Notes under the pieces: model-generated
What the model saw: only the letters and a program-made list of their open reading frames with translations
Database searches by the model: none
Told to the model about the DNA's origin: nothing
Source of the DNA: Promethearchaeota archaeon
Lineage (GTDB): Archaea; Asgardarchaeota; Lokiarchaeia; Sigyniarchaeales; SOKP01
Direction: 5' to 3'
Length of the DNA stretch: 64,000 bases
Assembly: GCA_019057795.1 (NCBI GenBank)
Contig: JAHLWS010000065.1
Location: forward strand, 64,001 to 128,000
Made by a program: the position numbers and the translations under genes
In this document: positions 4,208 to 24,766 of the stretch, piece by piece
Numbering within the stretch: position 1 is the first letter of the stretch
Layout of the letters: every line of letters begins with the position of its first letter

Positions 4208-5467
4208 CTATTTTTGTTGAGATCGAGAGGTTTTTATATCCCATTCCTCACAGAGTTTATAAAAGGAACCAATGGATACTTTAAATTTTTTAATTAAATG
4301 GGAAATTGGATACTTATCAATTAAACATTGTAGATTCTCCTTATTTACTACTGCTTCTTTTAGGCATGGAATCACATTCATATCTCTCTCATTAAATGTT
4401 CTCCTCTTTCTGGGCATACTGTTTTTATAGTTCCTCATCATTTCATTAAATAATAATGCCCCTAATGATAATCTCCAATGTGATTTAGTGGCAATAATAT
4501 TATCAAAATTACTTATTTTACCTTTCTCATATTGAATTTTAACTTCATATTGAATATTTAATTTCAACCTTATTTGTTCGAGAAATTCTTTAGAGCCACT
4601 TGTTATTCTAGTACTGTTAGCATTGCCATCCCCATCATAATAACCAAGAACCCAGGCCAAAAATAACTTATGATTAATAGGAGTTTTTTTATTAAAAATT
4701 ATAGGAATCGATTTTCTTAAAGACTTTGAACTTGAGAACCCAATATTCATTAAATCTTCAACCATTGGTTTACATCTAAAACGCAAATAAGCCAATTGAT
4801 ATGTTCTCCATTCTTCTTTATTTTTCTTTGTTCTATCTCGTTCTTTAATAAGTATAGGATCAAGATTTAGGGCTTTACAAAATCTTATTATTTGATCTTT
4901 ATCCTTAATTGAAAGCTCCATAGATATCAAATACCAAGGTTTTCCCCGATAATCCATTACTACAGAACCGTCTGCGTATAAAAAACCTAACCAATAAGCT
5001 TTTTCAAGTGTATCTACTTTCCTAAAAAAATCAGCTCTAAGATCATCGCTATATTGCTGATTTGAGTATTCTTTCAAGTTTTTATTTAACTCTTGATATC
5101 TTTTAATAAATAATAAACAATTAATTACTTTATTTCCTAAGCTTTTCTTTAGGTTATTTTGGAATTTTTCTAAATTTTGCTCTGAAAATTTGTAATTTGG
5201 ATTATATCCACGAACTTTCGAGTTGGTGATTCTTTGTTTTAGATCTGATAAATAAGTCGATCCATGTCCTAAAAGTATACTAGCTTTGGGTAAAGGTCCT
5301 AACTCATTTACCAAATCGTCTATTAAATTCAAAGTGCTATAAACACTTTCTTTTTTAACAGTCATAATTTGAATATGGAATTGATCTTTATAAACTGAAT
5401 AACATCCATAATTTTTTCTAATATCGTTTCTAATATTCATTCCAATAAGAATTAGGGCTCCAATCAC
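4208..5467 (-). CDS. Double-motif LAGLIDADG homing endonuclease (free-standing; likely start ATG at 5365)
   Basis: Motifs AYWLGFLYADG and LAWVLGYYDGDG; basic composition. Confidence 0.88.
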   Translation of the reverse strand: MIGALILIGMNIRNDIRKNYGCYSVYKDQFHIQIMTVKKESVYSTLNLIDDLVNELGPLPKASILLGHGSTYLSDLKQRITNSKVRGYNPNYKFSEQNLEKFQNNLKKSLGNKVINCLLFIKRYQELNKNLKEYSNQQYSDDLRADFFRKVDTLEKAYWLGFLYADGSVVMDYRGKPWYLISMELSIKDKDQIIRFCKALNLDPILIKERDRTKKNKEEWRTYQLAYLRFRCKPMVEDLMNIGFSSSKSLRKSIPIIFNKKTPINHKLFLAWVLGYYDGDGNANSTRITSGSKEFLEQIRLKLNIQYEVKIQYEKGKISNFDNIIATKSHWRLSLGALLFNEMMRNYKNSMPRKRRTFNERDMNVIPCLKEAVVNKENLQCLIDKYPISHLIKKFKVSIGSFYKLCEEWDIKTSRSQQK

Positions 5468-5638: not shown

Positions 5639-8464
5639 ATGGTGAGAGCAAATCATATAATAATTGTTCCTGAGACCCACTGGGACCGTGAAACTTTGTA
5701 TAATTAATATACAAAGCACGATTGGTATCTCCCGTTTCAAGAGTATAGAGCAAAACTAGTTCTCATGATGGATAAGCTCTTGGATATCCTAAGAAGCGAT
5801 CCAGATTATAAAAATTTCACTCTTGATGGACAAACTATTCCGATAGAGGACTATCTTGAAGTCCGACCTGAATTTGAAGATGAGATTAAAAAGTATGTAA
5901 AAGAAAGGCGGCTTTCGATTGGGCCTATGTATATTTTACCAGATGAATTTTTGGTAAGCGGCGAATCTTTGATTAGGAACTTAATAATTGGACACCAAAT
6001 TGCTAAGAGATTTGGAAGGGTTATGAAAGCAGGTTACATCCCTGATCCTTTTGGCCACATTGCTCAATTACCTCAAATACTTCAAGGATTTGAAATCCCT
6101 TCGATTTTATTCTGGCGAGGGTTTGGTAACGAATTCGTAGAAAATAACCTAAACATTGAATTTATTTGGAATTCCCCCGGAGATTCTAATTCTATTTTGG
6201 GAATATTTTTGAAGCAGAGCTACGGTTCGGTTGCTGATCTTAATTTATCAAAAAGAAGCGGAAAATATAAACTGGCGCTTCATAAGATAAAAAGGGTTGT
6301 TTCTGAGTTCGAAAAATTCACAGCTACATCCTATGTTCTTTTGAATAGCGGTTCAGATCATCACGAAGCTCGATCGGAGATTCCTGAAATAGTTAGACAA
6401 TGGAACGAAATGTATCCCGAGAAACTTTTAGAACAAAACGATTTTGAATATTATGTCGATAAAGTATTACATAGTAATCCACAGTTAAAACAGTTTAAAG
6501 GCGAATTAAGAGGTGGAAAGTACGCACATCTACTTTCAGGGGTATTTTCAGCTCGTATGTGGATCAAGCAGAGAAACACGGCAATCGAATATCTGTACGA
6601 AAAATATACGGAACCCTTATCAACAATTATATGGTCTCTCGATAAATATAAGGAATTTAATTACCCTCAAGCTTATATGCTCACAGGTTTGAAATGGCTT
6701 ATCAAAAACCACCCTCACGATAGCATATGTGGCTGTTCTATTGATCAGGTTCACAAAGAAATGGAGACTAGGTTTGATTGGGCGGAGCAAATCGGTAATG
6801 AAGTGTTTAAAAATTCAATATTGTATCTATACAATCTGATTACAGTTGAGGAAGACGAGAAAAAAATTCCGATCGTAGTATTTAATCCTCTTCCTTGGAA
6901 ACGTAAAGATATCGCAAATTTCCACATAATATCCAACACTAAAAAAGCTGGTTTTAAAAATCCAGACGCTTTCAAAATTCTCGACTCCGAAGGAAACGAG
7001 ATCGCATACCAATACGTTCAAATCAGCGAAGAGCCAAGATATAGATTAATTGGATCGGTTAGTTATTATTGCTCGTTTTTAGCCGAGGTTCCTGCTTGTG
7101 GATATAAGTGTTATTATATCGTACCAGGAGAAAAACCCGAAGAACCTGTAGTAAAGAGTAAAAAATTGAAGTTAGGTATAAATAGCTTAGAAAATCAGTT
7201 CTACAAAATCAACATAAGTTTTAAGGGACAAATCGACGTTTTAGATAAGGAAAGTAAAGTTTTGTACGAAAATATTTGTTATTTTGAGGATATAGGAGAT
7301 TGGGGGGATGAATATGACTTTTCGGGGCCATATGAAAATCAAACTGATTTAAAATTCACCTCAGAAGATCTGAATATTCTAGAAATAGCACCGTTTTTAG
7401 ACGGGGTCACCCAAAAAACGATTAGAATAAGAGCAAATCTCAATTTACCTACTTCTTTAACCGAGGATAGATATAGTAGAGACGAATATCTGATTTCAAA
7501 CTTAATCGATATCTATATAACGGTATATAAGGACATTAAACGAGTTGATTTTAAGATTGAATTAGAAAACAATAGTAAAGACCACCGAATACGAGTACTT
7601 TTTCCTTCAAAAATTAAATCTAAAAATGTAGATTCCGATGGTCATTTTTATGTCATTTCGCGAGATGTTGAGATGCCAAAATCTGAGAAATGGGCTCAAC
7701 AACCCGTACCTACTAACCATCAGAAAGATTTTGTCTCTGTTAACGATACATCAAGAACTTTTTCGGTTATAAACAAAGGATTACCCGAATATGAGGCAGT
7801 TATAAATAAAGATGGAACGATTTCGCTAGCTATTACCTTACTGCGGTGTATTGAATGGCTTTCAAGACACGATTTTACCTCGAGAAGAAGTAACGCAGGT
7901 CCGGACCTAAATACTCCCGAAGCTCAATGTCTTGGAAAGCATACTTTCGAACTTTCTCTCGTTATCGAAGGAAACAAACCTAATTGGTTAGATTCGAACG
8001 CTCACATAAAAGGTAAAGAATTTAACAATCCTTTTGAGGTTGTGGTTCCCTCGATAGTTAGAACCTCAATAAGAGCTTCGAATAAAGTCGTTTTAGCCCC
8101 TTTTGGACTAATTTCATATTTTAAACCATCAACTCGTCAACCTTTAAAACCTTATTTACCTACCAAATTAAGCTTCCTTGAAATCGATAACACAAAAATA
8201 ATGCTTAGTGCTTTGAAAAAATCGGAAAAGGGAGAATCTTTAATCGTTAGAGTTTATAACATCTCTTCAACCACTCAAAAAGCAAGGTTAACGTTACACG
8301 AGAAAACTTCCATCAAAAGTGCGGATATTGTAAACTTTTTGGAAGAAAAGCCAGAAAACGAAATTAAGGCGAAAATTGTTTCAAGTAAAGGGAATCATCT
8401 TGATCTAACTCTGGAACCGCACATAATAGTAACGATAAAACTTGAGCTTGATAATAATTATTAA
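5639..8464 (+). CDS. GH38 alpha-mannosidase / mannosylglycerate hydrolase-like, spliced: join(5639..5692,5723..8464), 931 aa
   Basis: Spliced N-terminus PETHWDREWYLPF (Zn-binding HxD motif), FTLDGQ, GYIPDPFGH nucleophile motif, HPHDSICGCS. The ORF-track version (5765 start) lacks the essential HWD motif. Confidence 0.9.
5693..5722 (+). other. 30-nt BHB-type intron in the alpha-mannosidase gene
   Basis: CGTG-AA^A-CTTTGTATA-ATTAA-TATACAAAG-CACG-AT^T: 4-bp central helix, two 3-nt bulges, perfect 9-bp inner stem; contains in-frame TAA; removal gives CGT GAA TGG TAT (REWY). Confidence 0.85.
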
Positions 8465-8613
8465 ATAAAAAAAATTTTCTTTTATTTTTTAAAAATCCTA
8501 AAATCCAGTTTAAAATATATCTATTTTTAATAATTTTAAATATGTGATACTCTTTTTAAAGTATCATCAACTTTTTAGCTAACTTCTTAATAAAATAAAA
8601 GGTCGAAAAACTT

Positions 8614-9747
8614 GTGAAAAATTTTGATATTATTGTTATAGGCGCAGGACCAGGAGGTTCTGTTGCAGCTAAAGTAGCCTCTGAAAACGGATATTCGACT
8701 TGTATCATTGAAAAAGAAATGCTTGGTGAGAAAGGAAGATATAAGGCATGTGGAGGAGCTACTGCGTGGGAACTAATAGAAGAAATTGATTACCCAGAAG
8801 AAAAAATTGGTAGGGTAATTGAATCTTTAGAATTGCACCATGTTGATGGAGAAACTTATTCTAAAAAAGGTAAAGGCGCTGTCGTTTGGCGAAGCACTTT
8901 TGATAAGTTTTTAACTGACATGGCTGTCGATAGTGGAGCCTTATTAAAAGAGAAAGAGCTTATGATTAACATTGAAAAAGTTGATGATTTTTACAAAATC
9001 AGTACTAATAAAGATAAATATACTGCAAAATATATAATTGCCGCTGATGGCGTTACTTCACCTACTTTAAAATTGCTAAATTGGCCTTTTTTCAAAAGTG
9101 AAGACTTAATTTTAACTATTACTAAAGAGATGAAAACTACTAAGTCCAATATAGATAAAGTTCTTGGACATGATACAGTTCATTTGTTTTTTGGTATTGA
9201 AAGCCTTATTCGTGTTGGTTATGCTTGGTTGTTTCCAAAAACTGAGAGGATTACAGTAGGATGGGGTAATCAAATTAATTTAGTAAAAAATTCAAGAGAA
9301 GAATTTAAAAAATTTCTAAAGCTCCCACTTGTTAAACTAGCGTTAAACAATTCAACGATGGAAACCTTTAAACCTCATCTAATCCCAGTAGGACTTAGAT
9401 CGAAGCTTTATGAGGAGAATCTGTTTGCTGTGGGTGATTCAGGGGGAATCGTTGATCCTATAAGCGGAAAGGGAATTCCCTATGCCATGATGTCTGGTCA
9501 GTTTGCTATTGAAACTATTAAAATGTGCGAAGAAAAAGATAGAATGGATAGGTTAGGAAGTTATTATGAAAGATCTTTAGATAGAAAGTTTTTAAAAATA
9601 TTAAAGGCAAAACGGATTTTAAGAGACACCATTTTTCAAAGTGATGAAAATTTGAAGAAATTCTTATCGTTGTGGGAAAACCATCGTAGTTCAGAAATTG
9701 CCATGAAAAATTTAATGGATCAAGTGAGTCTATATGAAATTTACTGA
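8614..9747 (+). CDS. Geranylgeranyl reductase family FAD-dependent oxidoreductase
   Basis: GAGPGG Rossmann motif, ACGG, AADG, YAWLFPK, VGDSGG...PISGKGIPYAM. Confidence 0.88.
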   Translation: MKNFDIIVIGAGPGGSVAAKVASENGYSTCIIEKEMLGEKGRYKACGGATAWELIEEIDYPEEKIGRVIESLELHHVDGETYSKKGKGAVVWRSTFDKFLTDMAVDSGALLKEKELMINIEKVDDFYKISTNKDKYTAKYIIAADGVTSPTLKLLNWPFFKSEDLILTITKEMKTTKSNIDKVLGHDTVHLFFGIESLIRVGYAWLFPKTERITVGWGNQINLVKNSREEFKKFLKLPLVKLALNNSTMETFKPHLIPVGLRSKLYEENLFAVGDSGGIVDPISGKGIPYAMMSGQFAIETIKMCEEKDRMDRLGSYYERSLDRKFLKILKAKRILRDTIFQSDENLKKFLSLWENHRSSEIAMKNLMDQVSLYEIY

Positions 9748-10801
9748 ATATTTGAGTTTTTATAAACCTAAGATAAACGATGCAATAGCATTAATCTATA
9801 ATAGACAATTAAAAGAAGTAAAAAATTCGTTCTTAAAAGTCTATTATTCAGAATTACGCGACTATTTTTTAACGGGAGGAAAGAGAATCCGTCCTTTGCT
9901 TTGTATCGCTACTTATAACGCTTTTAGTGGAAAACAAAATGACGACATTATCTTTCCAAGCGTTGGTGTCGAATTTCTACATAACGCTACTTTAGTCCAC
10001 GATGACATTATTGATAAGGATAATTTTAGACGAGGAAAACCCGCGTTTCATTATAGATTTAGGCAATTTCACATAGAAAATAGCCTTAAAAAAATATCAG
10101 CTGAAGATTATGGTAATTCGATAGGCATTATTGGGGGAGATTCCGCATTTTTTCTAGGTCTTGAAGCTTTTTTTTTTAACAATTTTGATAATAACTTTAA
10201 TCTCAGAGCAATTCAATATTACGAACATGCTTTTAGAGAAATAGTAAATGGAGTTTTGATTGAAATTGATATGGTAAACAAGAAAAATCTAAAAATGGAA
10301 GATTATATTCATATGGTTTCTCTTAAAACGGGAGCTTTACTAGAAAAATCAATATTAATCGGTGCTAATTACGCTAAAGTGGAAGAAAAATATAAGTCAT
10401 ATTTATCGATTTATGGAAAAAACTTAGGAATTATATTCCAGATAATAGACGATATTTTAGGGACCTTTGGTGACGAAACAACAACGGGAAAACCAATAGA
10501 CGGAGATATTAGAGAATCTAAAAAGACATGTTTATTGATAGAAGCCAATAATATGTTAAAAGGAAACGAAAAAATCAGACTCAATGAATTAATCGAAAGC
10601 ATTAATATGACTCAAGATGAAGTTCAAGAAGTAAGAGAATTGTTTCTTAAAGCAGAAGTCATTAATCATAGTAAAAAGCTAGCAGAGACTTATTATAAAG
10701 AAGCTCAAATTGCCCTTGAAAAATTAAAGCCAGTAATTCACAATTCAGAGTTAGAGTTTTACGAAAACCTATTAAAATTTGTATTAGAAAGAAAATTTTA
10801 A
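9734..10801 (+). CDS. Geranylgeranyl diphosphate synthase (trans-polyprenyl synthase)
   Basis: GGKRIRP, LVHDDIID...RRGKP, KTG, FQIIDDILG, DIRESKKT. Confidence 0.92.
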   Translation: MKFTEYLSFYKPKINDAIALIYNRQLKEVKNSFLKVYYSELRDYFLTGGKRIRPLLCIATYNAFSGKQNDDIIFPSVGVEFLHNATLVHDDIIDKDNFRRGKPAFHYRFRQFHIENSLKKISAEDYGNSIGIIGGDSAFFLGLEAFFFNNFDNNFNLRAIQYYEHAFREIVNGVLIEIDMVNKKNLKMEDYIHMVSLKTGALLEKSILIGANYAKVEEKYKSYLSIYGKNLGIIFQIIDDILGTFGDETTTGKPIDGDIRESKKTCLLIEANNMLKGNEKIRLNELIESINMTQDEVQEVRELFLKAEVINHSKKLAETYYKEAQIALEKLKPVIHNSELEFYENLLKFVLERKF

Positions 10802-10937
10802 GTTTTTAATCTTATTTGAGGTGTTTAAAAATTTTATTTTTTTTTTAAAAAGAGTAACCTCCACTCTTCTATTTGGTCAAGAAGGCGTTCTCTTCTTATT
10901 TTATTAAAGATTTATTTTTAAAATATCGAATCTTATA

Positions 10938-11864
10938 TTGATTATGGGACTATTTACCGCGAAAAACATAATAAGTTTTGTTTCCATGGGCCCATCATTA
11001 TTACAGTCAATTGTAAGAAATGTTCCGTTATATGTAAATTATGATTTAACTTGGCAATGTAACTTAAAATGTAAGCATTGTTATTTTTTCTCATCAACAG
11101 CGAAATTAAAAAATAAAAGAACGGAATTATCGGACGAAGAATGGATTAGGGTTTTTAAATACCATAGAAATTTAGGCACAAAAATAGCTGTTTTAACCGG
11201 TGGAGAACCTACTTTAAGAATGGATGTTATAAAAGAAGCGATTAAAATTTTTCCCTCAGTTCAGGTTGTATCAAATGGAGTTATAAAAATACCTCGATTT
11301 AATGAATATAAACAACCGAAATACTGGGTAAGTATAGATGGTACCAAGGAAACTCATGACAAGATAAGAGGAGCAAGGGTTTTTGATAAAGTCATACAAA
11401 ATATTCGGGAGAACAATCCGGTCGTTGTATCAACCATCATGACATTAAATTATAAGGAAATTGAAGATATTGTTAAGATTGCTCACGATAATGGTGCTTC
11501 TGGATTAGTTTTTCTATTTTATACCGACTATCCTGACAGCCCACTTTTAATAAAAGGTAATATATTAAAAAAGACAATAAAAGACATTTTAAAAGTAATG
11601 CGTGAATACGGAAATTTTATTTGTTATTCCAAAAAAATGTTAGAAGTATACCTGTCAAAAGAATTTGTGCCGCATTGTATATTTAAAACTGGTCAAATAA
11701 AAAGTTTCTATCCTGATGGAAAACAAAAGTTTTGTGTCATGGGAAATTCACCACTTTTATGTGACAATTGTGGATGTATCGTGCCAATTGCTGCTTATGC
11801 CTTATTTAAGAAATTTGATTCCAGTACAGTTAATAAAACGAGAAAATTGTTTAATTTCATGTAA
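10938..11864 (+). CDS. Radical SAM protein with C-terminal Cys cluster
   Basis: CNLKCKHC, LTGGEP, SIDG; C-terminal C...CVMG...CDNCGC. Confidence 0.88.
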   Translation: MIMGLFTAKNIISFVSMGPSLLQSIVRNVPLYVNYDLTWQCNLKCKHCYFFSSTAKLKNKRTELSDEEWIRVFKYHRNLGTKIAVLTGGEPTLRMDVIKEAIKIFPSVQVVSNGVIKIPRFNEYKQPKYWVSIDGTKETHDKIRGARVFDKVIQNIRENNPVVVSTIMTLNYKEIEDIVKIAHDNGASGLVFLFYTDYPDSPLLIKGNILKKTIKDILKVMREYGNFICYSKKMLEVYLSKEFVPHCIFKTGQIKSFYPDGKQKFCVMGNSPLLCDNCGCIVPIAAYALFKKFDSSTVNKTRKLFNFM

Positions 11865-12122
11865 TTTTTGTTATTTTGCAAAATTGATTTTTTCTACGAT
11901 GCCATCTACAGCAATAACATGGAGCCCTATGAGATTTATAGAAATAAAAAGATGGATATTGAGGTTCCGGCGAAGATTTGCAAGAATATCAAAGAGAGAT
12001 ACAAAAACCACTAATTCTGTCGTTCTAAATGAGATAGATTTAATATTTAGTTAACATTTTAGATTCATACTCTTTAATAATAAAAAAATAAATAAATGAA
12101 ATAAAAAAGAATTGAGCTTAGA

Positions 12123-13385
12123 ATGAAAAAAATAACTGGAGTAGATATTTTAGACGAAGAGGTAAAGGAAAAATTGACAACTAAAAATATCTATAAAATT
12201 TTTAATAATTTTATCATGCCCCTCATTACCGAAGAAGAGAGAGATTTTTTGGAAGAATTAGAACTTTTTTTGCTCAAAAATATTGAACCTAATATAGACC
12301 TCAATACTGAAGTATACGAACTTTTTCCTATTCTTGGAAAAAAAAATTATATTCAAAGATTAAATAATTTTGGTGATTGTAAAAGGTGCAATATGCGATA
12401 CGAGATGCTACTAGCTATGGCTACATCGATTGTCGATCCTGAACTAGACTTGGCTAGAGTAGTAACTGGCGTAATATTTGCAAATCCTTTATTCCAATTT
12501 GGTAAAAGCGATCGTATCACTGAAGTTTTACATCAAATCGTAACGGGTAAAAAGATCGGATGTATATGTATAACGGAAAAGTACCAAGGGTCTGATGCAG
12601 TTAACATGAAAACTAAAATTCAGGACAAGGGAGATCATCTAATTATGGATGGGGAAAAACTATACACCACAAATGGACCTAACGCGGACTATTTTATAGT
12701 TTATGGCGTATCAGACACATCAGATCCTCGAGGCACAATGTACCAAGTCATTGTTGAGCGAGATTTTGAAGGTTTAGAAACTAACAGACTCGGTATTCAA
12801 TCCGTTCCCCGGGTAGAAATTGGACAAACAATTTTTAATTCCGTTAAAATTCCCAAAGAAAATGTACTTGGAGCCAAAGGTCAAGGATATAAAAACCTTT
12901 TTTCTGGGCTAGTTGCCGAAAGGTGCGCCATCATAGGTTCTAGCCTTGGTATCGCTTGGCTTACGGCAATTACAGCTCTTATATATACAAACATTAGGTC
13001 TCAATTTAATCGCCTAATATACGACTTTCAAGGTGTTTCCTTTCCCATTACCCAGTTAATTATTGAATTAATGGCCGCTACGGAGTTAGGTTTCACAAGC
13101 GCGACAGAATACGATAAAACTATAAAACGTCAACAATTTGAACAACAGAAATACATTAAGTACAACGCATCGTTTAGTTCAGGAGCAAAATTCCTTGCTT
13201 CGAGCTTGGCTCACAAAATCTCGTATGAAACTCAGCAATTATGCGGAGGAATTGCTTTCACAGATAACCTGCGAATCGATAAAGCCTTAGAGGTTGCAAA
13301 AGTGCAAGAGATTATTGGTGGGGCTAGAAATATACAACTCTATTTAGTGAGTCGAGCAATAAAAGATATGATTTCTTTTTTGTAA
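12123..13385 (+). CDS. Acyl-CoA dehydrogenase family protein
   Basis: CITEKYQGSD, GEKLYTTNG, RSQFNRLIYDFQGV, QLCGGIAF, GGARNIQ. Confidence 0.88.
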   Translation: MKKITGVDILDEEVKEKLTTKNIYKIFNNFIMPLITEEERDFLEELELFLLKNIEPNIDLNTEVYELFPILGKKNYIQRLNNFGDCKRCNMRYEMLLAMATSIVDPELDLARVVTGVIFANPLFQFGKSDRITEVLHQIVTGKKIGCICITEKYQGSDAVNMKTKIQDKGDHLIMDGEKLYTTNGPNADYFIVYGVSDTSDPRGTMYQVIVERDFEGLETNRLGIQSVPRVEIGQTIFNSVKIPKENVLGAKGQGYKNLFSGLVAERCAIIGSSLGIAWLTAITALIYTNIRSQFNRLIYDFQGVSFPITQLIIELMAATELGFTSATEYDKTIKRQQFEQQKYIKYNASFSSGAKFLASSLAHKISYETQQLCGGIAFTDNLRIDKALEVAKVQEIIGGARNIQLYLVSRAIKDMISFL

Positions 13386-13407
13386 TAGCTCTAATGTTCT
13401 TTTAAAA

Positions 13408-14025
13408 TTAATCAGTAACCTCAGATTCACTAAGTTGTTTAATTAATATCGGTATAGCTTCATCAATCGTTTCTTTAACTTTAGCACCTAAACATACTAT
13501 TTTTCCTGAAGAAAAAATTAAAAAAACTACCTTTGGCTCCTGCATTTTGTAAATTGCTGCGGGAAATACTTCAGGTTCGTACATAACATTGTCCATCATA
13601 ATAGTTAACATATTCAAATCAACATTCATATTCAAACTACTAGTTGCTACAATATTTTGAATGATAATTTTTGGATTTTTTATTTTGAATCCAATGTTTT
13701 GTATCTTTTCAATCGCTTGTTGAGCTGCTAAGTTAGCATCTGTGGTTTTTTTAAGACCAGTAATTACCATTTTACCCGAAGAAAAAATTAATAAAGTAGC
13801 ATGTGGATTTTCAAGTCTCATAATAAGCCCTGGAAAACGATCAGGATTATATTCCACATTGGAGGTCCCTTGAATTATTTGATTTAAATCAAGCGCACAT
13901 TCAATTTCGGTAATAACTGTAGCTACAACATTTACAACTTTATATGAGATTTCAAGCTTATCACCGCGATGATTACTCCCCAAATCTCCAATTGTAAGCT
14001 TATCCTCAAGGTTTTCTTCGCTAAT
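13408..14025 (-). CDS. tbp: TATA-box binding protein (probable ATT start at 14025; ORF track starts at TTG 13983)
   Basis: Two repeats NVVAT...YNPDRFPG...LIFSSGKMVITG and NIVAT...YEPEVFP...LIFSSGKIVCLGAK; GAGGAG 7 nt upstream of in-frame ATT. Confidence 0.93.
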   Translation of the reverse strand: MSEENLEDKLTIGDLGSNHRGDKLEISYKVVNVVATVITEIECALDLNQIIQGTSNVEYNPDRFPGLIMRLENPHATLLIFSSGKMVITGLKKTTDANLAAQQAIEKIQNIGFKIKNPKIIIQNIVATSSLNMNVDLNMLTIMMDNVMYEPEVFPAAIYKMQEPKVVFLIFSSGKIVCLGAKVKETIDEAIPILIKQLSESEVTD

Positions 14026-14256
14026 ATTTTATCTCCTCTATATATTTGTATTAAACTGATGTATTATGACTCAAAAAAAATTTAATAAGATGAATTATAT
14101 TTAAAATAATTAATATTTTATAAATTAAATGAACCATCCCAATTTAACTTTTTCATCATTTTTTTTTTAACATAATTTAGAGAAAAATAGATAATATCTA
14201 AAAATAATTAAAGAATTATATTATAACTCTAATTAATTAAAATAACTTAAACTCCA

Positions 14257-14823
14257 TTGGTGAAAAATTTGGTTTTATTGGTTGCTATTACGGGCGCTAG
14301 TGGTGCTAACCTAGCGATTATCTTGCTACAACAACTGAAGAAAAAAGAAGTTGAAACTGAATTAATAATATCAAAAGTAGCTGAGAAAATCATTGACATT
14401 GAAACTGATTATAAACTAACTGAAATAATTGATTTATCAACAAAGTATTATGATGTTGATGATTTAACGGCAAACCCCGCCAGTGGTTCTTATAAAATTG
14501 ATGCAATGGTAATTATTCCGTGCTCGATGAAATCCTTGGCTTCTATTGCTAATGGTTATGCAGATAACTTAATAACCAGAGCCGCAGATGTAACAATTAA
14601 AGAACGAAGAAAACTCATCTTAGTAGTTCGAGAAACTCCTTTCAGTGCGATTCACCTTGAAAATATGCTTAAATTAGCAAGAATTGGAGTTATAATCGCG
14701 CCTCCAATTCCTTCTTATTATATCAAACCTGAGAGTATTAATCAACTTAACGAATATTTCGTAGGAAGAATACTTGATCATATAGGTATTGAAAGCGGGA
14801 TAAAGAGATGGGGGAGCTATTGA
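14257..14823 (+). CDS. ubiX: Flavin prenyltransferase UbiX
   Basis: AITGASG, PASGS, PCSMKSLASIANG, RAADVTIKERRKLILVVRETP. Confidence 0.93.
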   Translation: MVKNLVLLVAITGASGANLAIILLQQLKKKEVETELIISKVAEKIIDIETDYKLTEIIDLSTKYYDVDDLTANPASGSYKIDAMVIIPCSMKSLASIANGYADNLITRAADVTIKERRKLILVVRETPFSAIHLENMLKLARIGVIIAPPIPSYYIKPESINQLNEYFVGRILDHIGIESGIKRWGSY

Positions 14824-16721
14824 TTTACCCATTGATATAGTTCTCCAAGCAGAACTCGCTTGTCCTTATTGTCCTTAAGATTTTCTACGTTTGTTATATT
14901 CGTTAACCATAAGGAAGAACGCAACTCGTCTTTCAATGTTTTTATTTCTTTAATTGTGTGAATAGAAGTACTGTTGTTGTAATCTTTCCAAGCGGATAAT
15001 AGAAATTTATAAGCAAATCCTCCGATATCAGCGCCTAATGCGATGCTTTTAGCGATATCTACTCCATTCCTTAGACCACCAGTTGCTATAATCAATTTTT
15101 TAGTAACTTCTCTTACATAAATAATGGTTAGAGGTGTGGGGATACCCCATTCTCTAAAAGAATCTGCGAGTCTTCTCGTATATTTTTCAAAACTAAAATT
15201 ATCTCGGTGAGATTCAATTGCAGCAAAACTAGTACCTCCAGTGCCTCCGACATCAAATCCATCGAAACCTATTGAATCAAGACTCAAAGCTAATTCCTTA
15301 TTGAAGCCAGTTCCCACTTCTTTGGCGATTATTGGAATGTTAATTTCTTTTCGAATTTTTTGAAATTTTTCAAAGAAATTTTTATAAGATATGTTTCCGT
15401 TGCTTTGGACTAATTCGTGTAAAGCATTAAAATGAATGGCCATTACATCTGCTTTTACCATTTCAATACATTCAATAAAGTCTTCTTTTTTAAAAGTGGA
15501 AGAATTGATTTGGCCGATTCCTATATTTCCAATTATTGGAATGTTAGGCGCAACTTCACGAACAATCTCAAAAGACTCAAGGGTAGAGGGATCTTCCAAG
15601 CCTATGCGTTGACTTCCTACGCTCATTATAATGTTTTCTTCTTCTGCAGCTTTAGCTAAAATTCTGTTTATTGCTTTAGAGATTGGATGCCCACCGGTTA
15701 TAGCGGAAATACAAATTGGAGCGGAAATCTTTTTATTAAAAAACATTGTTGCGATGTCAATATCATCTAATTCGACTTCCGGAAGCGAATGATGAATTAA
15801 TTTTATGTCATCAAAATAGTTTTTTACGTGTTGGACATTAGATATGATTGGAATCTTGAGGTGTTCTAACTTTCTCATATAAATCTCTGATAACCTTTTT
15901 TCGTCATGAATTCCACTAATGTTCGTACAGATTAATTTTTGATTGCTTAAGGCCTTAAAGATGTTACCGTCAGTCAGACCGTTTATAACCTGAACTGGAA
16001 TATTTAATCTACAAATTTCTTTAATCGCATGAATTTTTCCTCTAATACTTCCAGTAACATCAATCTTATTTCCTAAATCGGCTAATTTAATTTTATCTAA
16101 CTCTTCAAGACTAATTTCTGAGGCTAATTTTATATTTTTTTTATCATTTTTAATATCTTCAACAAAAATTCCATCTTTGTCAACAGCAAAAATAACTTTA
16201 GAAATACAATATTTTTTCAAGTTTTTACACAATTCTAAAATTATGCGATCTCCAGAAATTATTGAAAAATTGCCTTCTTTATCAAGAATAATATCCCCAT
16301 ATAAAACGGGTAGAATTCCAAGATCAAGCGAAGTTTCAATTGGCTCAATAGATTCAAAAAAAATCTCGTTTAAATGTTTGATAAAAATACTTGAAGGTTG
16401 AATGGAAAGAGCGGGATACTTATTTTCTAAAAACTCTTCAATTATTTGCGAATTGAATTTAATCATCGCTTCGTGCGTTTTAGTTAGCCCAAATATCTGA
16501 TTCTTAATAGAAATATTGAGTCCTTGAGAAATGTTATATTTTTTAGCAATCGGGTGTCCAAAGGAACCTCCTCCATGGATTAAGATTAACTTTTTATTAG
16601 CATCTATTATTTGTTGAATTGCGCTTTTTACAACTTCTTTTCTGATAGAAAAAGGAATATTTTTATCAGTTAATAAACTTCCACCCAATTTTAACAGAAA
16701 TATTTCGTTACTATTTTTCAA
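14817..16721 (-). CDS. fni: Fused isopentenyl phosphate kinase / type 2 IPP isomerase
   Basis: N-term LKLGGSLLTDK, HGGGSFGH, SGD, DVTG (IPK); C-term RKLEH, AITGG, GSQR, KEVGTG, GGTSFAAIE, WGIPT, ATGGLRNG (IDI-2). Confidence 0.9.
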   Translation of the reverse strand: MKNSNEIFLLKLGGSLLTDKNIPFSIRKEVVKSAIQQIIDANKKLILIHGGGSFGHPIAKKYNISQGLNISIKNQIFGLTKTHEAMIKFNSQIIEEFLENKYPALSIQPSSIFIKHLNEIFFESIEPIETSLDLGILPVLYGDIILDKEGNFSIISGDRIILELCKNLKKYCISKVIFAVDKDGIFVEDIKNDKKNIKLASEISLEELDKIKLADLGNKIDVTGSIRGKIHAIKEICRLNIPVQVINGLTDGNIFKALSNQKLICTNISGIHDEKRLSEIYMRKLEHLKIPIISNVQHVKNYFDDIKLIHHSLPEVELDDIDIATMFFNKKISAPICISAITGGHPISKAINRILAKAAEEENIIMSVGSQRIGLEDPSTLESFEIVREVAPNIPIIGNIGIGQINSSTFKKEDFIECIEMVKADVMAIHFNALHELVQSNGNISYKNFFEKFQKIRKEINIPIIAKEVGTGFNKELALSLDSIGFDGFDVGGTGGTSFAAIESHRDNFSFEKYTRRLADSFREWGIPTPLTIIYVREVTKKLIIATGGLRNGVDIAKSIALGADIGGFAYKFLLSAWKDYNNSTSIHTIKEIKTLKDELRSSLWLTNITNVENLKDNKDKRVLLGELYQWVNQ

Positions 16722-16734
16722 TTTTAATTAACAC

Positions 16735-17701
16735 TCATCCTATCATTGTTCTCCAGGCGTCATAGCCTTCTTTTTCGATAGCCTTGGCGATAGATTCTTG
16801 TATTTCTTCATTTTCTGCTAAAGCGATTACTAAACCACCCCGACCCGTCCCCGTCATTTTAGCTCCAACCGCTCCATTTTTTAGTGCTATTTCTACCAAT
16901 TTATCGTTTATTTCTCCTGAAACTGTGATTCTTTGAAGTAATTTGTGGTTTTGATTCATTAATTTGCCTATAGTGGTAATATCACCTTCAAGCAATGCTT
17001 TTTTTGCTTTTTCTGATAAATCCTTATATTCGTTTAGTATCTTCTCAAATTCTTCTGAATTAGTTTCCTTTAAACGCCGAACATCAGCAACTACTTCCGT
17101 TGTTGAAGCTGTTATTCCTGAATTTGCGATTGTCAAGAGCATCTTTCTTGGCGATTGAAGGAAGTCCATCGTATTTTTTCCACCACTTAAATTTTTCACA
17201 AACCAAATCAAACCACCATAAGTCGAAGCCGTGTTATCAATACCAGAAGGGGTTCCGTGATAAGCCTTCTCTCCTTCGTAAGCGGCTTCGTTTATCTTTT
17301 CATCGTCTAACTTTAGATTAAAGCTATCGTTGATTGCACGAGCGAGAGAAGTACATTGAGCGGCAGAAGCACCAACTCCACTCGTAGCGATTAAATCTCC
17401 TGTGAAAGTGATTTCAAGTTTTTGACTCTCTGTATCTATTTTTAAATAATGGACTACATTGCGAATAGATTGCATTGCCTCATCGTATTTCTTTTTTTTA
17501 TAACCCGGTGTAGCGGGTCTCTGATCGTCGACAGTCCAGTTTTGTCCATTAACAACTTTAACATCTGCGGTTGTATAGGAACCTAATGCCGAAGCAATAG
17601 CGGGAAGACCATAAACTACAAAATGATTGCGTCTACTTCCGAAGTTGGAAGTAAATTTCGCCAAAAAGAATGGTCTTACCATATCCTTTTCCAGTTCCCG
17701 T
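16735..17701 (-). CDS. mvk: Mevalonate kinase, spliced: complement(join(16735..17625,17657..17701)), 311 aa, ACG at the start position
   Basis: Spliced N-terminus GTGKGYGKTILFGEHFVVYGLPAIA; GVGASAA, HGTPSGIDN, GAKMTGTGRGG GHMP motifs. Confidence 0.9.
17626..17656 (-). other. 31-nt BHB-type intron in mvk
   Basis: Minus strand GGCG-AA^A-TTTACTTCC-AACTTC-GGAAGTAGA-CGCA-AT^C: 9-bp inner stem (one G-U), central helix of 3 bp plus G.A, two 3-nt bulges; removal gives GGC GAA CAT TTT (GEHF). Confidence 0.83.
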
Positions 17702-18091
17702 TTATTTCACCTCCACAGTACCTTTTGAACCATTTACAATTATTTTTTGTCCAGTTTTAATACAATTAATATCAATTTTATCTACGCATGGAATTTCACT
17801 AATTATGCAACCCACCGCTATTATAGTATCGATCTCTTCGTTTACGATTGCTACTGGAGCCATGTTGTTTTTTTTCATCCGGTACATCGTATACGACCCT
17901 ACAGTCGAGCCTTTACCAGTAGGAAAGACTAGAACTTTTCCTGTAATGGATTGTCCCTCAAGATCGTGCCCAACCTCAACAACCATACCGGTGTCCGGAT
18001 CTATGCCACCATAAAATGAAATCCCATCTTTAGTTACTATCGCTTCTGCCTCAGCAATTCCTTTATAGATTTTTCTTCCTTTTAGCTTCAT
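17702..18091 (-). CDS. Phosphomevalonate dehydratase small subunit (AcnX swivel domain, DUF126)
   Basis: ISFYGGIDPDTG, GKVLVFPTGKGSTVGSY; operon context. Confidence 0.9.
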   Translation of the reverse strand: MKLKGRKIYKGIAEAEAIVTKDGISFYGGIDPDTGMVVEVGHDLEGQSITGKVLVFPTGKGSTVGSYTMYRMKKNNMAPVAIVNEEIDTIIAVGCIISEIPCVDKIDINCIKTGQKIIVNGSKGTVEVK

Positions 18092-19296
18092 TTAATCGCC
18101 TCCTCAACGCATTGTTCCATTGAGCCAATTTTTACTTTGAATTTATTCTTTGCGCGTCCGTAATAACACGCCTTTGCTGAATCTACCATGATTCCCTTGA
18201 AGCGCCCCTTAATTGGAGCAACAACGCAACAGGTATCTGCAGCAAATTTTGCTCCAGCATCTTCAATAATTTTAGAATAACCAGCTTCGTCTGCGATTTT
18301 CTTTGTAGGTCGAGCAGTAGTAATCCAAAATTCTTTCTTTACTTTTTTTCCTTCTAACAATTTTGCAATTTTAGCGATTTCGTGAATTGAAGCGTGAGGA
18401 CAACCTAGACTTACAAAATCTATCTCAAGATCATCGTCAATAAGCTCAGCACGAGTCTTATCTAAATCGTCCTGATTAATTTCAATAACAATTTCACTTG
18501 GTTTAGTGTATTTATTATACTCGGGAGTAATTCCTTCCATATGGAATAATGCTGTTCCACCATAGGTAGCGACGGAAGCGCAAAAAGACTTAAGCTCTTC
18601 AACGGTAGCAGAAGGGATTCCCGCAATATAAGGGACTTTTTTTCCTAGTTTTACTAGTTTATCGCCAATCAATTTTCCCAGCACGCCAAATTCGTCAGTA
18701 TTTTTAATCGAAGCGTTTATCTTAAACAAGACTTGGGCGTGACGATTTTCGTCCAAATGATAACCGTATTTAGGCGTTTTACCGGTTAAAGCCGCTGCCA
18801 ATGCGCTTGGTCCCCCCTCTCGATTCGTTCGAGCCCCAATAACGGAGTTGGAATAACAAACAGCGCTACTTTCGGCCCAAGCAATGTGTTGGCCATAATG
18901 AGGCGCGTTTCCAATTAAATAAGGTGTACAAGAACACGTCGTAATTATTCCCATTTTTGCAAAAACATCTATAGCACGATTCTGATTTTTAGCAAATTCT
19001 TCGTCAATTCCTAACGCTCTCCAATTTTCCCGATCCATTCCAGCGGGATTTAAAGTAGTTAAAACTCTGACCTTCCCATCTTCTGCCATTTCGTTTAAGA
19101 ATTCCAACCCTGCTTCGCCAAGATTAGCGTAGGAAACTCCTGCTATTTGAACTCCATGAACATCAACCATACATTCAGCACCAAATATTTCGCCTAATGT
19201 GGTTAATATTTCCATGGATTTCTGGACGGACTTTCCATGCTTTCCATCAAGCATATCTTTTTCTATTTGTTCTAATCTCATAATCCTCAATTGCAT
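18088..19296 (-). CDS. Phosphomevalonate dehydratase large subunit (aconitase X catalytic, DUF521)
   Basis: TTLNP, CSCTPY, WAESSAV, GARTNRE, GCPH, DTCCVV, DSAKA. Confidence 0.9.
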   Translation of the reverse strand: MQLRIMRLEQIEKDMLDGKHGKSVQKSMEILTTLGEIFGAECMVDVHGVQIAGVSYANLGEAGLEFLNEMAEDGKVRVLTTLNPAGMDRENWRALGIDEEFAKNQNRAIDVFAKMGIITTCSCTPYLIGNAPHYGQHIAWAESSAVCYSNSVIGARTNREGGPSALAAALTGKTPKYGYHLDENRHAQVLFKINASIKNTDEFGVLGKLIGDKLVKLGKKVPYIAGIPSATVEELKSFCASVATYGGTALFHMEGITPEYNKYTKPSEIVIEINQDDLDKTRAELIDDDLEIDFVSLGCPHASIHEIAKIAKLLEGKKVKKEFWITTARPTKKIADEAGYSKIIEDAGAKFAADTCCVVAPIKGRFKGIMVDSAKACYYGRAKNKFKVKIGSMEQCVEEAIK

Positions 19297-19300
19297 TTTA

Positions 19301-20602
19301 TTAAAAATATTTGTTCAAATCTACTCTTGGGAAATCAGCTCTATCAAAACTCTTTCCTTTAGTTATAAGTGGTTTTGTTAAATCAAATCCCATTTTAGTT
19401 GTCATTTTCGTTCCCGGTTCTGCGCTAGGATCTAAACTACTTCCGGGTTCCTTATCTTTAATTATCATATTAACATTCCCTTGAAAGCGAGTTGCCATTG
19501 CCCATTCCACAGATAACGGGTCGTAAATATCAATATCTTTATCTACAATAAATATGTGTTTGCAACTACTATGGCCAATAAATGCACCATGAATAGCTTT
19601 TTTACCATCTTCTTCTGAATTTTTATCAATTTGTACAATTGCATGTAGCCATGAACATCCTCCAGGATTTATATTAACATCTAAGCACTTAACTCCAGAT
19701 TCGTTCACTTTATTGAAAATAGTGGGTTCTCTTGGCATACCCATCAATATTTTATGCTCAAGCGCACCAGGTAATAAAGCTTGCCAAATCGCGTCCTTTC
19801 TATGAGTTATTTTTTTAACTTCAAAAACTGGTTCTTCTCTTACAACATCATAAGTTTCTGTTAAGTCGACAAAAGGCCCTTCAGCGTGTTTTTCTTCTAA
19901 ATAGACTCGCCCTTCTAATACAAATTCTGCTTCTGCAGGGATTAAAAGATCAACTGAATTTGCTTTAACAACTTTTATTGGCTCTAATGCATTTGCAATA
20001 TGTAATTCATCAACTCCAATATCCACAGAAGTAGCACCGGCAATTAAAATGTTAGGAGTGTTACCTATACAAAAAGCAACATCTAATTCGCTATTTTTTT
20101 CTAAAAACGTATGAAAATGTCGACCTCTAACTATTCGAGTAGAAAATTTGTCTTTGGAAAATTGCATAGCCCGATGGAAATCCATGTTTTGTCCATAATC
20201 GGGGTCTCTTGTGATTACGACAGCAGAACTTACGTAATTCCCGCCGTCCTTTTCGCAATGAAATAAAATTGGTAATTTATCTAAATCTACGCTTGATTCT
20301 ATAACTTCTTGACAAAGAGCGTTTGATACGATTTCTGGTTCTGAGCGTTCATTTATTGCTTTTGAAAGCATTGGTATGATGTCTGCGGGAGTTACATTGA
20401 AATACGAAGCAATTACATTCTTAGTACAGAACATGTTGCCAACCAACCTGAATTCAGATTCTTTTACATTATTAAACATTAAGGGGGTTGGTTCTTTCTC
20501 TTTTAATATACCAGAAATCTCTAATTTCTTCGAAGTCTCGACATCTACCTTTTGAAGGAGTCCTTTCTCATCAATTTTATTTATATAATCTCTAAATCCC
20601 AT
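19301..20602 (-). CDS. UbiD-family decarboxylase (probable anhydromevalonate phosphate decarboxylase)
   Basis: DGGNY, HR, PAEAEFVLEG, EGPFVD, VDKDIDI, WAMATR, SSLDPS; in operon with AcnX and mvk. Confidence 0.88.
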   Translation of the reverse strand: MGFRDYINKIDEKGLLQKVDVETSKKLEISGILKEKEPTPLMFNNVKESEFRLVGNMFCTKNVIASYFNVTPADIIPMLSKAINERSEPEIVSNALCQEVIESSVDLDKLPILFHCEKDGGNYVSSAVVITRDPDYGQNMDFHRAMQFSKDKFSTRIVRGRHFHTFLEKNSELDVAFCIGNTPNILIAGATSVDIGVDELHIANALEPIKVVKANSVDLLIPAEAEFVLEGRVYLEEKHAEGPFVDLTETYDVVREEPVFEVKKITHRKDAIWQALLPGALEHKILMGMPREPTIFNKVNESGVKCLDVNINPGGCSWLHAIVQIDKNSEEDGKKAIHGAFIGHSSCKHIFIVDKDIDIYDPLSVEWAMATRFQGNVNMIIKDKEPGSSLDPSAEPGTKMTTKMGFDLTKPLITKGKSFDRADFPRVDLNKYF

Positions 20603-20692
20603 AAATATCGTCTCAAAATTTTATTTATCGTGATGCAGTTATCAATTATATTACTTTTTATTAGAGGAGTTTATGAAACACTTTTTATAAAA

Positions 20693-21985
20693 CTAAAGGT
20701 TTTTACTTTTAACTATTTCCTTTAAAACTTCCTTTGCGTAATCTACTCTTATTTTTTTATCTTCTACTATTTTATTTGCAACCTCTTCAATCAAATTATC
20801 AGGTACACCTGCTAATTTCGCAATATTACGAGAGTGAAGTGTCATATGACCTTTTTGGATACCTTCTGATGCTAAGGCTCTTAAGGCGGCTACATTCTGG
20901 GCTAAACCTAACGCTGCAGCAATTTGAGATAACTCTTCTGCACTCTTAACACCTAAAATTTTCAATGCTAGACGTGCCATTGGATGGATTTTTGTCATTC
21001 CTCCAACAATTCCAAGAGCTAGAGGGACTTCTATCTCGCCAACTAAATTACCGTCTGAGTCAGATTTAAATTTCGTAAGAGGTTTGTATTTGCCACTCAA
21101 AGAAGCATAAGCGTGAGCTCCTGCTTCAATAGCACGAGTGTCGTTTCCTGTTGCTAAAGTTAACGCTATTATTCCATTCATTATCCCTTTATTATGGGTC
21201 GTTGCCCTATAGGGATCGGCAAGCGCAAATTCATAAGCGTTTAAAATGCCCTCAACTACTTCTTCTCCACCCAACAAGTTCTTATCAAATACTGCTTTAC
21301 ATTTCGCAATTCGATGTGTAGCCAAGTTGGATACGATTCGCAAATATATCTTCCCTTCACTAATTTCTTCTATATAAGGACTTACGGCTTCAGCCATCGT
21401 ATTTACTACATTAGCACCCATAGCGTCTAATACATTAACCAGAAGGTGAAGGATTACCATTTTGCCTTTTTTGGTTTCTATTTCTCGAACCTCTATATCT
21501 AGAGCACCGCCACCTAACTTATTTAGTAAGGGGTCTTGCTCATTTGCAATTTTTAAGATTTTTTCCTTATTTCTCACTAAAATTTCCTTAGCAGCAACAA
21601 TATCTTTTAATTGAGTTATTTGTATTTGAGAAATCATGATTGATTTAACTTCTTCAGACTGAAAACCCCCGTTTTTTCTTGCTATCTTAGCTGCGTTAGA
21701 AGCAGCGGCCACAACTGAAGGTTCTTCAATCACCATGGGCAAAATATAATCTTTTCCATTGATCCTAAAGTTTAAAGCAATACCCAAGGGCAATTGGTAA
21801 CTCCCAATTACATTTTCTATTAGCGTGTCAATTTGACTGGGCGTAAAATACCCCAAAGCTTGCAATAGTTTAACTTCTTCCTGTTTTAAGTTAATTAATT
21901 TAGCTAATTGATGTTGGCGTTCTTCTAAGGATAGCTTATAAAAACCCGAAATATCTGAACGAATTTCTTGCATCTTTTTATTCAC
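20693..21985 (-). CDS. mvaA: HMG-CoA reductase, class II
   Basis: ENVIG, EEPSVVAA, DAMGANVVN, THNKGIMNG, GNDTRA, GIQKGHMTLH. Confidence 0.92.
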   Translation of the reverse strand: MNKKMQEIRSDISGFYKLSLEERQHQLAKLINLKQEEVKLLQALGYFTPSQIDTLIENVIGSYQLPLGIALNFRINGKDYILPMVIEEPSVVAAASNAAKIARKNGGFQSEEVKSIMISQIQITQLKDIVAAKEILVRNKEKILKIANEQDPLLNKLGGGALDIEVREIETKKGKMVILHLLVNVLDAMGANVVNTMAEAVSPYIEEISEGKIYLRIVSNLATHRIAKCKAVFDKNLLGGEEVVEGILNAYEFALADPYRATTHNKGIMNGIIALTLATGNDTRAIEAGAHAYASLSGKYKPLTKFKSDSDGNLVGEIEVPLALGIVGGMTKIHPMARLALKILGVKSAEELSQIAAALGLAQNVAALRALASEGIQKGHMTLHSRNIAKLAGVPDNLIEEVANKIVEDKKIRVDYAKEVLKEIVKSKNL

Positions 21986-22119
21986 ATTAATCTTAATTTG
22001 AAATTATTTATATCATCTTCTAATTGTTTTGCCTTAGATAATTTTGAACTTTTAGTTGATAGGATAGGAAGGTGAAAAATAGAAGATGTCATTATTAACT
22101 ATAATTCTAAAACATAAAT

Positions 22120-24040: not shown

Positions 24041-24766
24041 TTGGAAGAATTAAAGGACATACCCGCAAATAAATTGCCTAAACACATTGGTTTAATTCTA
24101 GATGGTAATCGTAGATGGGCAAAAAAAAATTTGCTTGAAGCAAATGTGGGCCATTTAATAGGGTACGAGAATTTAAAAGAGAGGTTATTTGACTTTTTTG
24201 ACGCAGGAATTCATTATTTGAGCATTTACGCCTTGTCGCTTGAAAACGCACGGAAAAGAAGTGTTAACGAACTTAGATATATTTTTAAGATAATTTTAAA
24301 AGCAGTGGACACGGTAATAAATGAATCAACTGTAAGAGAAGAGAAAGTCAAATTTAACGTAATTGGCCGAATACATTTGCTACCTGAAGATGTCCAGGAG
24401 AAAATCAAAGAATTAATTGAATTTACAAAGGACCATAACCAAAATTTCATTAACTTGTGCATTATGTATGACGGCCAAGAAGAAATCGTAGACGCTATGA
24501 AAAAGATAACGGAGGATAATATAAAATCCGAAGATATTACGCGAGATTTAATCAAGAGTTATTTATATACGAAAAGTTTTCCTGAGGTAGATTACATAAT
24601 TCGCACTGGCATGAGCGATGGCGCTAGAATCTCGGGATTTCTGTTATGGGACGCATCTTATGCAGAGTTCAAATTTAGAACTGACCTATGGCCTGATTAT
24701 AATAAAGAAATGATAATTGAAGATATTAAAGATTATTTGAAGAGAAATCGAAGAAAAGGTAAATGA
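24041..24766 (+). CDS. uppS: cis-prenyltransferase (undecaprenyl diphosphate synthase family)
   Basis: PKHIGLILDGNRRWA, YALSLEN, YDGQEEI, IRTG...RISGFLLW. Confidence 0.92.
   Translation: MEELKDIPANKLPKHIGLILDGNRRWAKKNLLEANVGHLIGYENLKERLFDFFDAGIHYLSIYALSLENARKRSVNELRYIFKIILKAVDTVINESTVREEKVKFNVIGRIHLLPEDVQEKIKELIEFTKDHNQNFINLCIMYDGQEEIVDAMKKITEDNIKSEDITRDLIKSYLYTKSFPEVDYIIRTGMSDGARISGFLLWDASYAEFKFRTDLWPDYNKEMIIEDIKDYLKRNRRKGK

What the first reader, a model, noticed from the sequence alone, without database searches (positions are those of the whole stretch)
5639..17701. Shared design suggests a genome-wide family of mini mRNA introns
Seen: the two introns are unrelated in stem sequence but share architecture. 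Both are 30-31 nt, phase 0, inserted after a GAA codon, with 5' bulge AA^A, 3' bulge AT^Y, a 9-bp inner stem, a position within the first 20 codons, and a site in the most conserved N-terminal motif. Inference: two in 64 kb implies many per genome, i.e. protein-spliced mRNA introns may be common in this lineage. That would matter for Asgard annotation and for the origin of eukaryotic non-spliceosomal (tRNA-ligase-dependent) mRNA splicing, and it could couple gene expression to EndA/RtcB activity.
Basis: inference. Interest (0 to 1): 0.9.

Follow-up and report, generated by a model that had tools for sequence, protein, structure and literature searches.

The report
Tiny tRNA-type introns in Asgard genes
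Two protein genes in this window, and about 20 across the genome of this uncultured Loki-type Asgard archaeon, are broken by roughly 30-base hairpins shaped like tRNA introns, so their messenger RNAs very probably have to be cut and rejoined by the tRNA-splicing enzymes, which the papers I could search report for only two archaeal mRNAs.

Summary
Both inserts are real: 30 nt in a GH38 alpha-mannosidase gene (5693-5722, in-frame stop) and 31 nt in mevalonate kinase (17656-17626, frameshift). [quoted passage not shown] Relatives carry or precisely lack them. The kinase intron occurs in 52 of 151 genomes (5 genera), and an exon base co-varies with its intron partner (52/52 paired).

A motif-free comparison with part of a relative, plus paralogue and motif checks, gave 24 such introns (28-36 nt) in 20 genes: 15 supported by homologue alignment, 9 by restored motifs only. 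I estimate 25-40 per genome, under 1% of genes, not the ~155 that this window would extrapolate to. Length and BHB shape are general; phase 0, the GAA codon and the N-terminal position are not. A two-subunit crenarchaeal-type EndA and RtcB are present.

Published cases found: cbf5 and Haloferax HVO_1309. This scan noted the same phenomenon before, in this genome and many other Asgard genomes.

The parts
5639..5692 (+). GH38 alpha-mannosidase exon 1 (18 codons; carries the His and Asp of the HWD motif, zinc ligands by own knowledge of GH38)
   Evidence: intronless orthologues contiguous
5693..5722 (+). BHB intron 1, 30 nt, phase 0, in-frame TAA at 5705-5707; inner stem 5694-5702/5708-5716; central helix 5687-5690 with 5717-5720; bulges 5691-5693 and 5721-5723
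5723..8464 (+). GH38 exon 2 (913 codons, intact)
17657..17701 (-). Mevalonate kinase exon 1 (15 codons, ACG start at 17701-17699 directly after the stop of the AcnX small-subunit gene; GKTILFGE motif)
17626..17656 (-). BHB intron 2, 31 nt, phase 0, frameshifting; central helix 17662-17659 with 17631-17628; bulges 17658-17656 and 17627-17625; inner stem 17655-17647/17640-17632
16735..17625 (-). Mevalonate kinase exon 2 (296 codons; GHMP_N and GHMP_C), inside the modified mevalonate operon (about 14817-23748)
16735..17682 (-). Mis-called 315-aa ORF read through the unspliced intron from an out-of-frame ATG; this is the form held in public databases

Best explanation
The two inserts belong to a set of roughly 25-40 short (28-36 nt) bulge-helix-bulge introns in protein-coding genes of this Lokiarchaeia (Promethearchaeota) genome. 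Shown: the insert and the last exon bases can form a 4-bp helix between two 3-nt bulges, closed by a hairpin; removal at the canonical position in each bulge restores frame and motif; the pairing is under selection; the enzymes are encoded. Inferred: the two-subunit EndA cuts both bulges of the pre-mRNA and RtcB joins the exons, as for tRNA introns and crenarchaeal cbf5; unspliced messages are non-productive (frameshift or stop). Inferred on evolution: the introns arise independently at sites whose local sequence allows a BHB, are tolerated because the broad-specificity EndA removes them, and are repeatedly lost precisely or swapped by recombination. They are probably near-neutral passengers rather than regulators.
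For: Precise presence/absence: MVK 17 with and 12 without; GH38 8 with and 21 without. Exon-intron covariation in the MVK helix: 47 genomes GGC with intron G, 4 GGT with intron A, 1 GGT with G (wobble), no C-A mismatch, in two genera. GH38 stem: 92.9% of cells paired, 6 of 9 inner pairs with double changes, 0/500 shuffles as high for percent paired and covariation score, slid registers 25-48% paired; central helix 75/76 paired in 19 distinct introns. Synonymous exon sites are frozen only when the intron is present: GAC CGT GAA 8/8 against 2/21; TTT GGC GAA 16/17 against 0/12. Exon 2 is full length in the intron-bearing genomes that span it. All 19 distinct 30-nt GH38 introns and all four 30-nt MVK variants carry an in-frame stop, in five stop configurations for GH38 (chance 0.54 each, sequences related). 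Motif-free protein-to-DNA alignment against 2.29 Mb of relative G008: the well-anchored frame-breaking inserts outside repeats cluster at 29-36 nt, and 10 of the 12 retained inserts beat at least 95% of their shuffles for BHB energy. The single Pfam-detected uL11 and Elf1 genes are broken this way. Two EndA subunits and RtcB are present; the catalytic subunit's best solved match is Aeropyrum pernix EndA, including the loop lysine region linked to relaxed-BHB cleavage (PMC5829648).
Against: A few inserts have weak BHBs (second H+-PPase insert 58/100 shuffles, C32 insert 10/100). One insert (H+-PPase, C56:31747) is in frame without a stop. Nine of the 24 rest on restored motifs recognised by eye, and their registers were chosen with the BHB in mind. 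Relatives are not independent samples. The genome is listed at 7.5% contamination.
Confidence: 0.88

Rival explanations
1. The inserts stay in the mRNA and the ribosome hops over the hairpin (translational bypassing, like T4 gene 60 or yeast mitochondrial byps; own knowledge).
For: Short hairpins, often with an in-frame stop, sitting in conserved motifs; no RNA evidence excludes it.
Against: Take-off and landing codons do not match (GAA against GAT; GAA against AAT); 17 of 24 sites fall inside a codon; the selected feature is an exon-intron 4-bp helix with 3-nt bulges, the EndA geometry.
Confidence: 0.04
2. The genes are dead or dying, broken by small mobile or duplicated elements, or they use an alternative N-terminus without splicing (the 315-aa MVK ORF).
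For: Intronless alleles exist in close relatives, and the GH38 intron is scattered on the tree (7 changes for 8 carriers). An open 315-aa MVK frame exists and, in five genomes, the exon-1 start is ACG.
Against: The MVK intron persists in 52 genomes of 5 genera with intact exon 2 where examined. In G005 a change that is synonymous in the exon-1 frame destroys the alternative ATG. The alternative N-terminus lacks the conserved motif-I lysine (role from own knowledge). The only uL11 and Elf1 matches are affected. The inserts share no sequence family.
Confidence: 0.03
3. Removal happens, but by another route: a different nuclease/ligase pair, or precise excision at the DNA level in part of the population.
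For: Some central helices are imperfect (3/4 pairs in 5 of 24, 2/4 in one); intronless DNA alleles occur within 90% protein clusters.
Against: Intronless alleles differ at synonymous sites and so are separate alleles, not excision products; the geometry matches EndA, and a relaxed-specificity EndA type is present.
Confidence: 0.04
4. Assembly or sequencing artefact.
For: Metagenome-assembled genome, 7.5% contamination.
Against: Identical sequence in independent assemblies; homologous, diverged inserts at the same sites in dozens of genomes.
Confidence: 0.01

Closest known systems
BHB intron in the cbf5 pre-mRNA of Sulfolobales and Desulfurococcales (PMC2738675; PMC10485636)
   Same: Short intron (cbf5: 16-44 nt) inside a coding sequence at a conserved motif, BHB or relaxed BHB at the junctions, two-subunit EndA host, patchy gain and loss among relatives.
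BHB intron in the 5' UTR of Haloferax volcanii HVO_1309 (PMC7714728; PMC10485636)
   Same: EndA-cut intron in an mRNA.
   Different: Untranslated region, single case, alpha2-type EndA; here the introns break reading frames.
Asgard tRNA introns (bioRxiv 10.64898/2026.10.13.758758)
   Same: Repeated independent gains at BHB-compatible sites, no shared sequence source, two-subunit EndA; 30-nt tRNA introns of the same build occur in this genome.
   Different: That study covers tRNA genes only (0 occurrences of 'mRNA' or 'cbf5' in its text); median intron length 22-23 nt.
Eukaryotic HAC1/XBP1 non-spliceosomal mRNA splicing (own knowledge; tRNA ligase role in the abstract of PMC13586215)
   Same: Short intron removed by a protein endonuclease, exons joined by the tRNA ligase; removal restores the frame.
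   Different: Cut by IRE1, not by the EndA homologue TSEN; yeast TSEN cuts mRNAs for decay without splicing (PMC10485636). The resemblance is analogy; descent is not shown.

Membership tests
Archaeal BHB (EndA-type) intron | 4-bp central helix formed by the 5' exon end and the intron 3' end | tested here: met
   GH38 4/4, 75/76 cells over 19 variants; MVK 3/4 here, inner three pairs 48/48 in 16 variants, exon-intron covariation in 52 genomes
Archaeal BHB (EndA-type) intron | Two 3-nt bulges on opposite strands, with cuts after the second bulge base giving the correct product | tested here: met
   Cuts AA^A/AT^T and AA^A/AT^C reproduce the intronless homologue junction exactly
Archaeal BHB (EndA-type) intron | Flanking helices (intron-side hairpin; exon-side helix in the canonical hBHBh' form) | tested here: inconclusive
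   Intron-side stem strong and covarying; exon-side helix only about one pair in the two window introns, i.e. relaxed form
Archaeal BHB (EndA-type) intron | Host encodes a splicing endonuclease able to cut relaxed motifs, and an RNA ligase | tested here: met
   Two PF01974 genes, one with the catalytic Tyr/His/Lys pattern and one without the His; best PDB match A. pernix EndA with the loop-lysine region aligned; RtcB E 1.7e-168
Archaeal BHB (EndA-type) intron | Excision from RNA and exon ligation in vivo or in vitro | not testable with these tools
   Phases 7/11/6; GAA before 3 of 24; most sites internal
Mobile element family (MITE-like) or group I/II intron | Shared sequence or termini among copies; ribozyme core | tested here: not met
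   No pairwise similarity above shuffles among 24 introns or to the tRNA-region hits compared; 28-36 nt is too short for a ribozyme core (own knowledge)
Translational bypass element (byp / gene 60 type) | Matched take-off and landing codons | tested here: not met
   GAA/GAT and GAA/AAT in the window; 17 of 24 sites split a codon

The most novel reading that the evidence does not exclude
Lokiarchaeia run a genome-wide, protein-only mRNA splicing system: dozens of genes per genome, including essential single-copy ones, need EndA and RtcB to be expressed, introns are gained and lost continually, and unspliced messages are guarded by frameshifts or selected stop codons. A further step, not excluded but unsupported, is that splicing efficiency is used to regulate these genes.
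Probability: 0.8. Interest if true: 0.85.

Novelty: new variant of a known kind. Interest (0 to 1): 0.8.

Why it matters
If spliced, this moves archaeal mRNA splicing from two isolated cases (cbf5, HVO_1309) to a routine step for tens of genes in a lineage close to eukaryotes. It shows that an intron-containing transcriptome can exist without a spliceosome, and makes questions about intron gain, loss and co-transcriptional translation in a nucleus-free cell testable with short natural substrates. It also matters practically: gene callers give wrong or truncated proteins for these genes (half of 180 close MVK homologues lacked the true N-terminus), which can distort metabolic reconstructions and phylogenomic markers such as uL11.

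Tried and rejected
Descriptor-only scans: the strict form gave a small excess at 28-31 nt but missed known cases; relaxed forms were swamped by chance hits. Several good-looking hairpins were rejected because the native frame is intact or a relative aligns without an insert: GluRS-like C52:71577, porB-like C70:176197, C79:47956 and C71:54258, C73:100716, C67:149, C45:1590 and a hairpin before a start codon at C80:1212. A search for cDNA-like contigs among intronless near-relatives found separate DNA alleles, not spliced copies. Six literature searches found no paper on Asgard mRNA BHB introns; the library lacks most subscription papers.
Full report
Setting. The window is G000:C65:64001-128000 of a 4.95-Mb, 31% GC genome. 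Named homologues of its mevalonate kinase (MVK) are mostly labelled Promethearchaeota or Lokiarchaeota, so it is a Loki-type Asgard archaeon.

Observation. Insert 1 (5693-5722, +, 30 nt) follows codon 18 of a GH38 alpha-mannosidase and holds an in-frame TAA. Insert 2 (17656-17626, -, 31 nt) follows codon 15 of MVK in the modified mevalonate operon and shifts the frame. Removing them gives THWDRE|WYLPF and ILFGE|HFVVYG; the latter is contiguous in solved MVK 2HFS. Both fit a bulge-helix-bulge: a 4-bp helix of exon end and intron end, two 3-nt bulges and a 9-bp hairpin. No shuffle out of 100 reaches their constrained energies. The MVK region is identical in two independent assemblies.

Comparative evidence at the two sites. 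MVK: 17 loci carry a 28-31-nt insert at the same point and 12 lack it precisely. A pattern search finds it in 52 of 151 genomes, in 5 genera of the same family and in none of the 24 genomes of other families, where the flanking codons may simply not match the pattern. The third base of the exon Gly codon pairs with an intron base: C with G in 47, T with A in 4, T with G in 1. GH38: 8 genus members carry it and 21 loci lack it; 13 more metagenome loci carry it. All 19 distinct versions are 30 nt and all contain an in-frame stop. The stem shows double changes at 6 of 9 pairs and beats shuffles and slid registers. Exon codons that form the helix are frozen only in carriers. On protein trees the MVK intron needs 5 changes and the GH38 intron 7, so loss or allele exchange is frequent. 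Relatives are not independent, so these counts are descriptive.

Genome-wide test. The descriptor alone is a poor test. I therefore aligned proteins of relative G008 (2.29 Mb fetched, about 46%) to this genome with a DP that allows a 14-75-nt jump and knows nothing of BHB; it recovered both window introns to the base. In 1.35 Mb of aligned coding sequence it gave 12 well-anchored inserts, all 29-36 nt: the two window genes, a CobA-like P-loop gene (C47:20809), a cold-shock gene (C79:71925), C49:81154, an H+-pyrophosphatase (C56:31747 and 31604), a membrane protein (C73:72126), a UDP-glucuronate decarboxylase-like gene (C31:7199), C32:7531, cdhD (C85:12215) and C69:3676. Ten of the 12 beat at least 95% of their shuffles. 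Paralogue alignments added an alcohol dehydrogenase (C78:126080) and two in a thiolase (C45:14394, 14305). Restored motifs added uL11 (C73:108910, 108851), Elf1 (C70:101393), phosphofructokinase (C70:27462, 27778), a second thiolase (C11:43775), ACR3 (C78:170202), acetyl-CoA synthetase (C75:67905) and a ferredoxin-like gene (C43:23332). The uL11 and Elf1 leads came from earlier notes; gene names here rest on motifs recognised from own knowledge unless a Pfam call is cited. Total: 24 introns in 20 genes. G008 has its own, for example in uppS, whose orthologue in this window (24041-24766) is intronless.

How many. Ten introns outside the window in a 46% sample give about 22 plus the two here; introns shared with G008 and genes without an orthologue are missed. 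Three of eight introns listed in earlier notes fell in my G008 set, which gives about 29. I estimate 25-40, under 1% of genes. This is inference from small numbers.

What is and is not shared. Lengths 28-36 nt (20 of 24 are 29-31); the first bulge begins with A in 24/24 and the second in 22/24 (partly favoured by register choice); central helix 4/4 in 18. Phases are 7/11/6, GAA precedes only 3, most sites are internal, and the introns share no sequence. They fall in conserved motifs, but detection favours that.

Machinery. Two EndA subunits and RtcB are encoded. The catalytic one is closest among solved structures to Aeropyrum pernix EndA and aligns through the loop whose lysine is tied to relaxed-BHB cleavage (PMC5829648, which also reports this type in Asgard archaea). 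tRNA introns of the same size occur in the genome.

Mechanism. Shown: structure potential, selection on it, exact frame restoration, enzymes present. Inferred: EndA cuts both bulges of the pre-mRNA and RtcB ligates (0.88). Ribosome bypassing, pseudogenes or an alternative N-terminus, another excision route and artefact are each unlikely for the reasons listed under rivals. No RNA evidence could be obtained. Regulation is untested; patchy presence among close relatives fits tolerated passengers better.

Literature. PMC7714728 and PMC10485636 list cbf5 and HVO_1309 as the archaeal mRNA cases; PMC2738675 describes cbf5 gain and loss; the 2026 preprint on Asgard tRNA introns does not mention mRNA. 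Earlier notes of this scan report the same phenomenon in this genome and in many others (135 findings in at least 55 genomes match the words); these are unchecked leads, and I tested those marked so.

Verdict. Observation confirmed; interpretation partly supported. A new variant of a known kind: known chemistry, unreported scale. Interest 0.8.

Noticed in passing
window 17701-17699 (-); L001-L006: MVK starts at ACG right after the upstream stop and behind a GGAGGTGA ribosome-binding site in five related genomes (CTG in a sixth; ATG, TTG or GTG in others). Candidate non-canonical start codon.
   Followed up: partly
L076, minus strand near 14120 (G008:C41); window 24041-24766: Relative G008 has a 30-nt BHB insert with a stop in uppS (ILD|GNRRW); the orthologue in this window is intronless. 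G008 has a second one in L179.
   Followed up: partly
G000:C56:31747 (-): The first H+-pyrophosphatase insert is 30 nt, in frame and stop-free, so unspliced mRNA would give a protein with ten extra residues in a conserved motif.
   Followed up: partly
G000:C73:108910-108824 (-); C45:14394-14275 (-); C70:27462-27807 (+); C56:31747-31571 (-): Four genes carry two introns each; uL11 has a 29-nt micro-exon and the C45 thiolase a 60-nt one. More clustering than 24 random insertions would suggest; not tested statistically.
   Followed up: no
L031-L060 tree: The GH38 intron is not clustered on the protein tree (7 changes, shuffled mean 7.1); G026 is 96% identical in protein yet lacks it and has different exon-1 codons, suggesting recombination of the 5' segment.
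   Followed up: partly
window 4208-5467 (-): 419-aa ORF with two LAGLIDADG-like motifs, divergent from the GH38 gene; possibly a free-standing homing endonuclease homologue.
   Followed up: no
window 14817-23748 (-): Modified mevalonate operon (HMGS, HMGR, UbiD, two AcnX subunits, MVK, fused IPK-IDI2); MVK splicing would gate this lipid pathway.
   Followed up: no
G000:C78:58080 (-): 55-nt frame-shifting insert relative to a paralogue, without a good BHB; unexplained.
   Followed up: partly
G000:C80:1212 (+): 31-nt BHB-like hairpin between a ribosome-binding site and a start codon; the G008 alignment does not show it as an insertion.
   Followed up: yes
G000:C78:135749 (+), C70:128028 (+), C36:26200 (-): 30-33-nt BHB introns in or next to tRNA T-loops, same build as the mRNA introns; ARAGORN found only 29 tRNA genes, consistent with heavily interrupted tRNAs.
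   Followed up: partly
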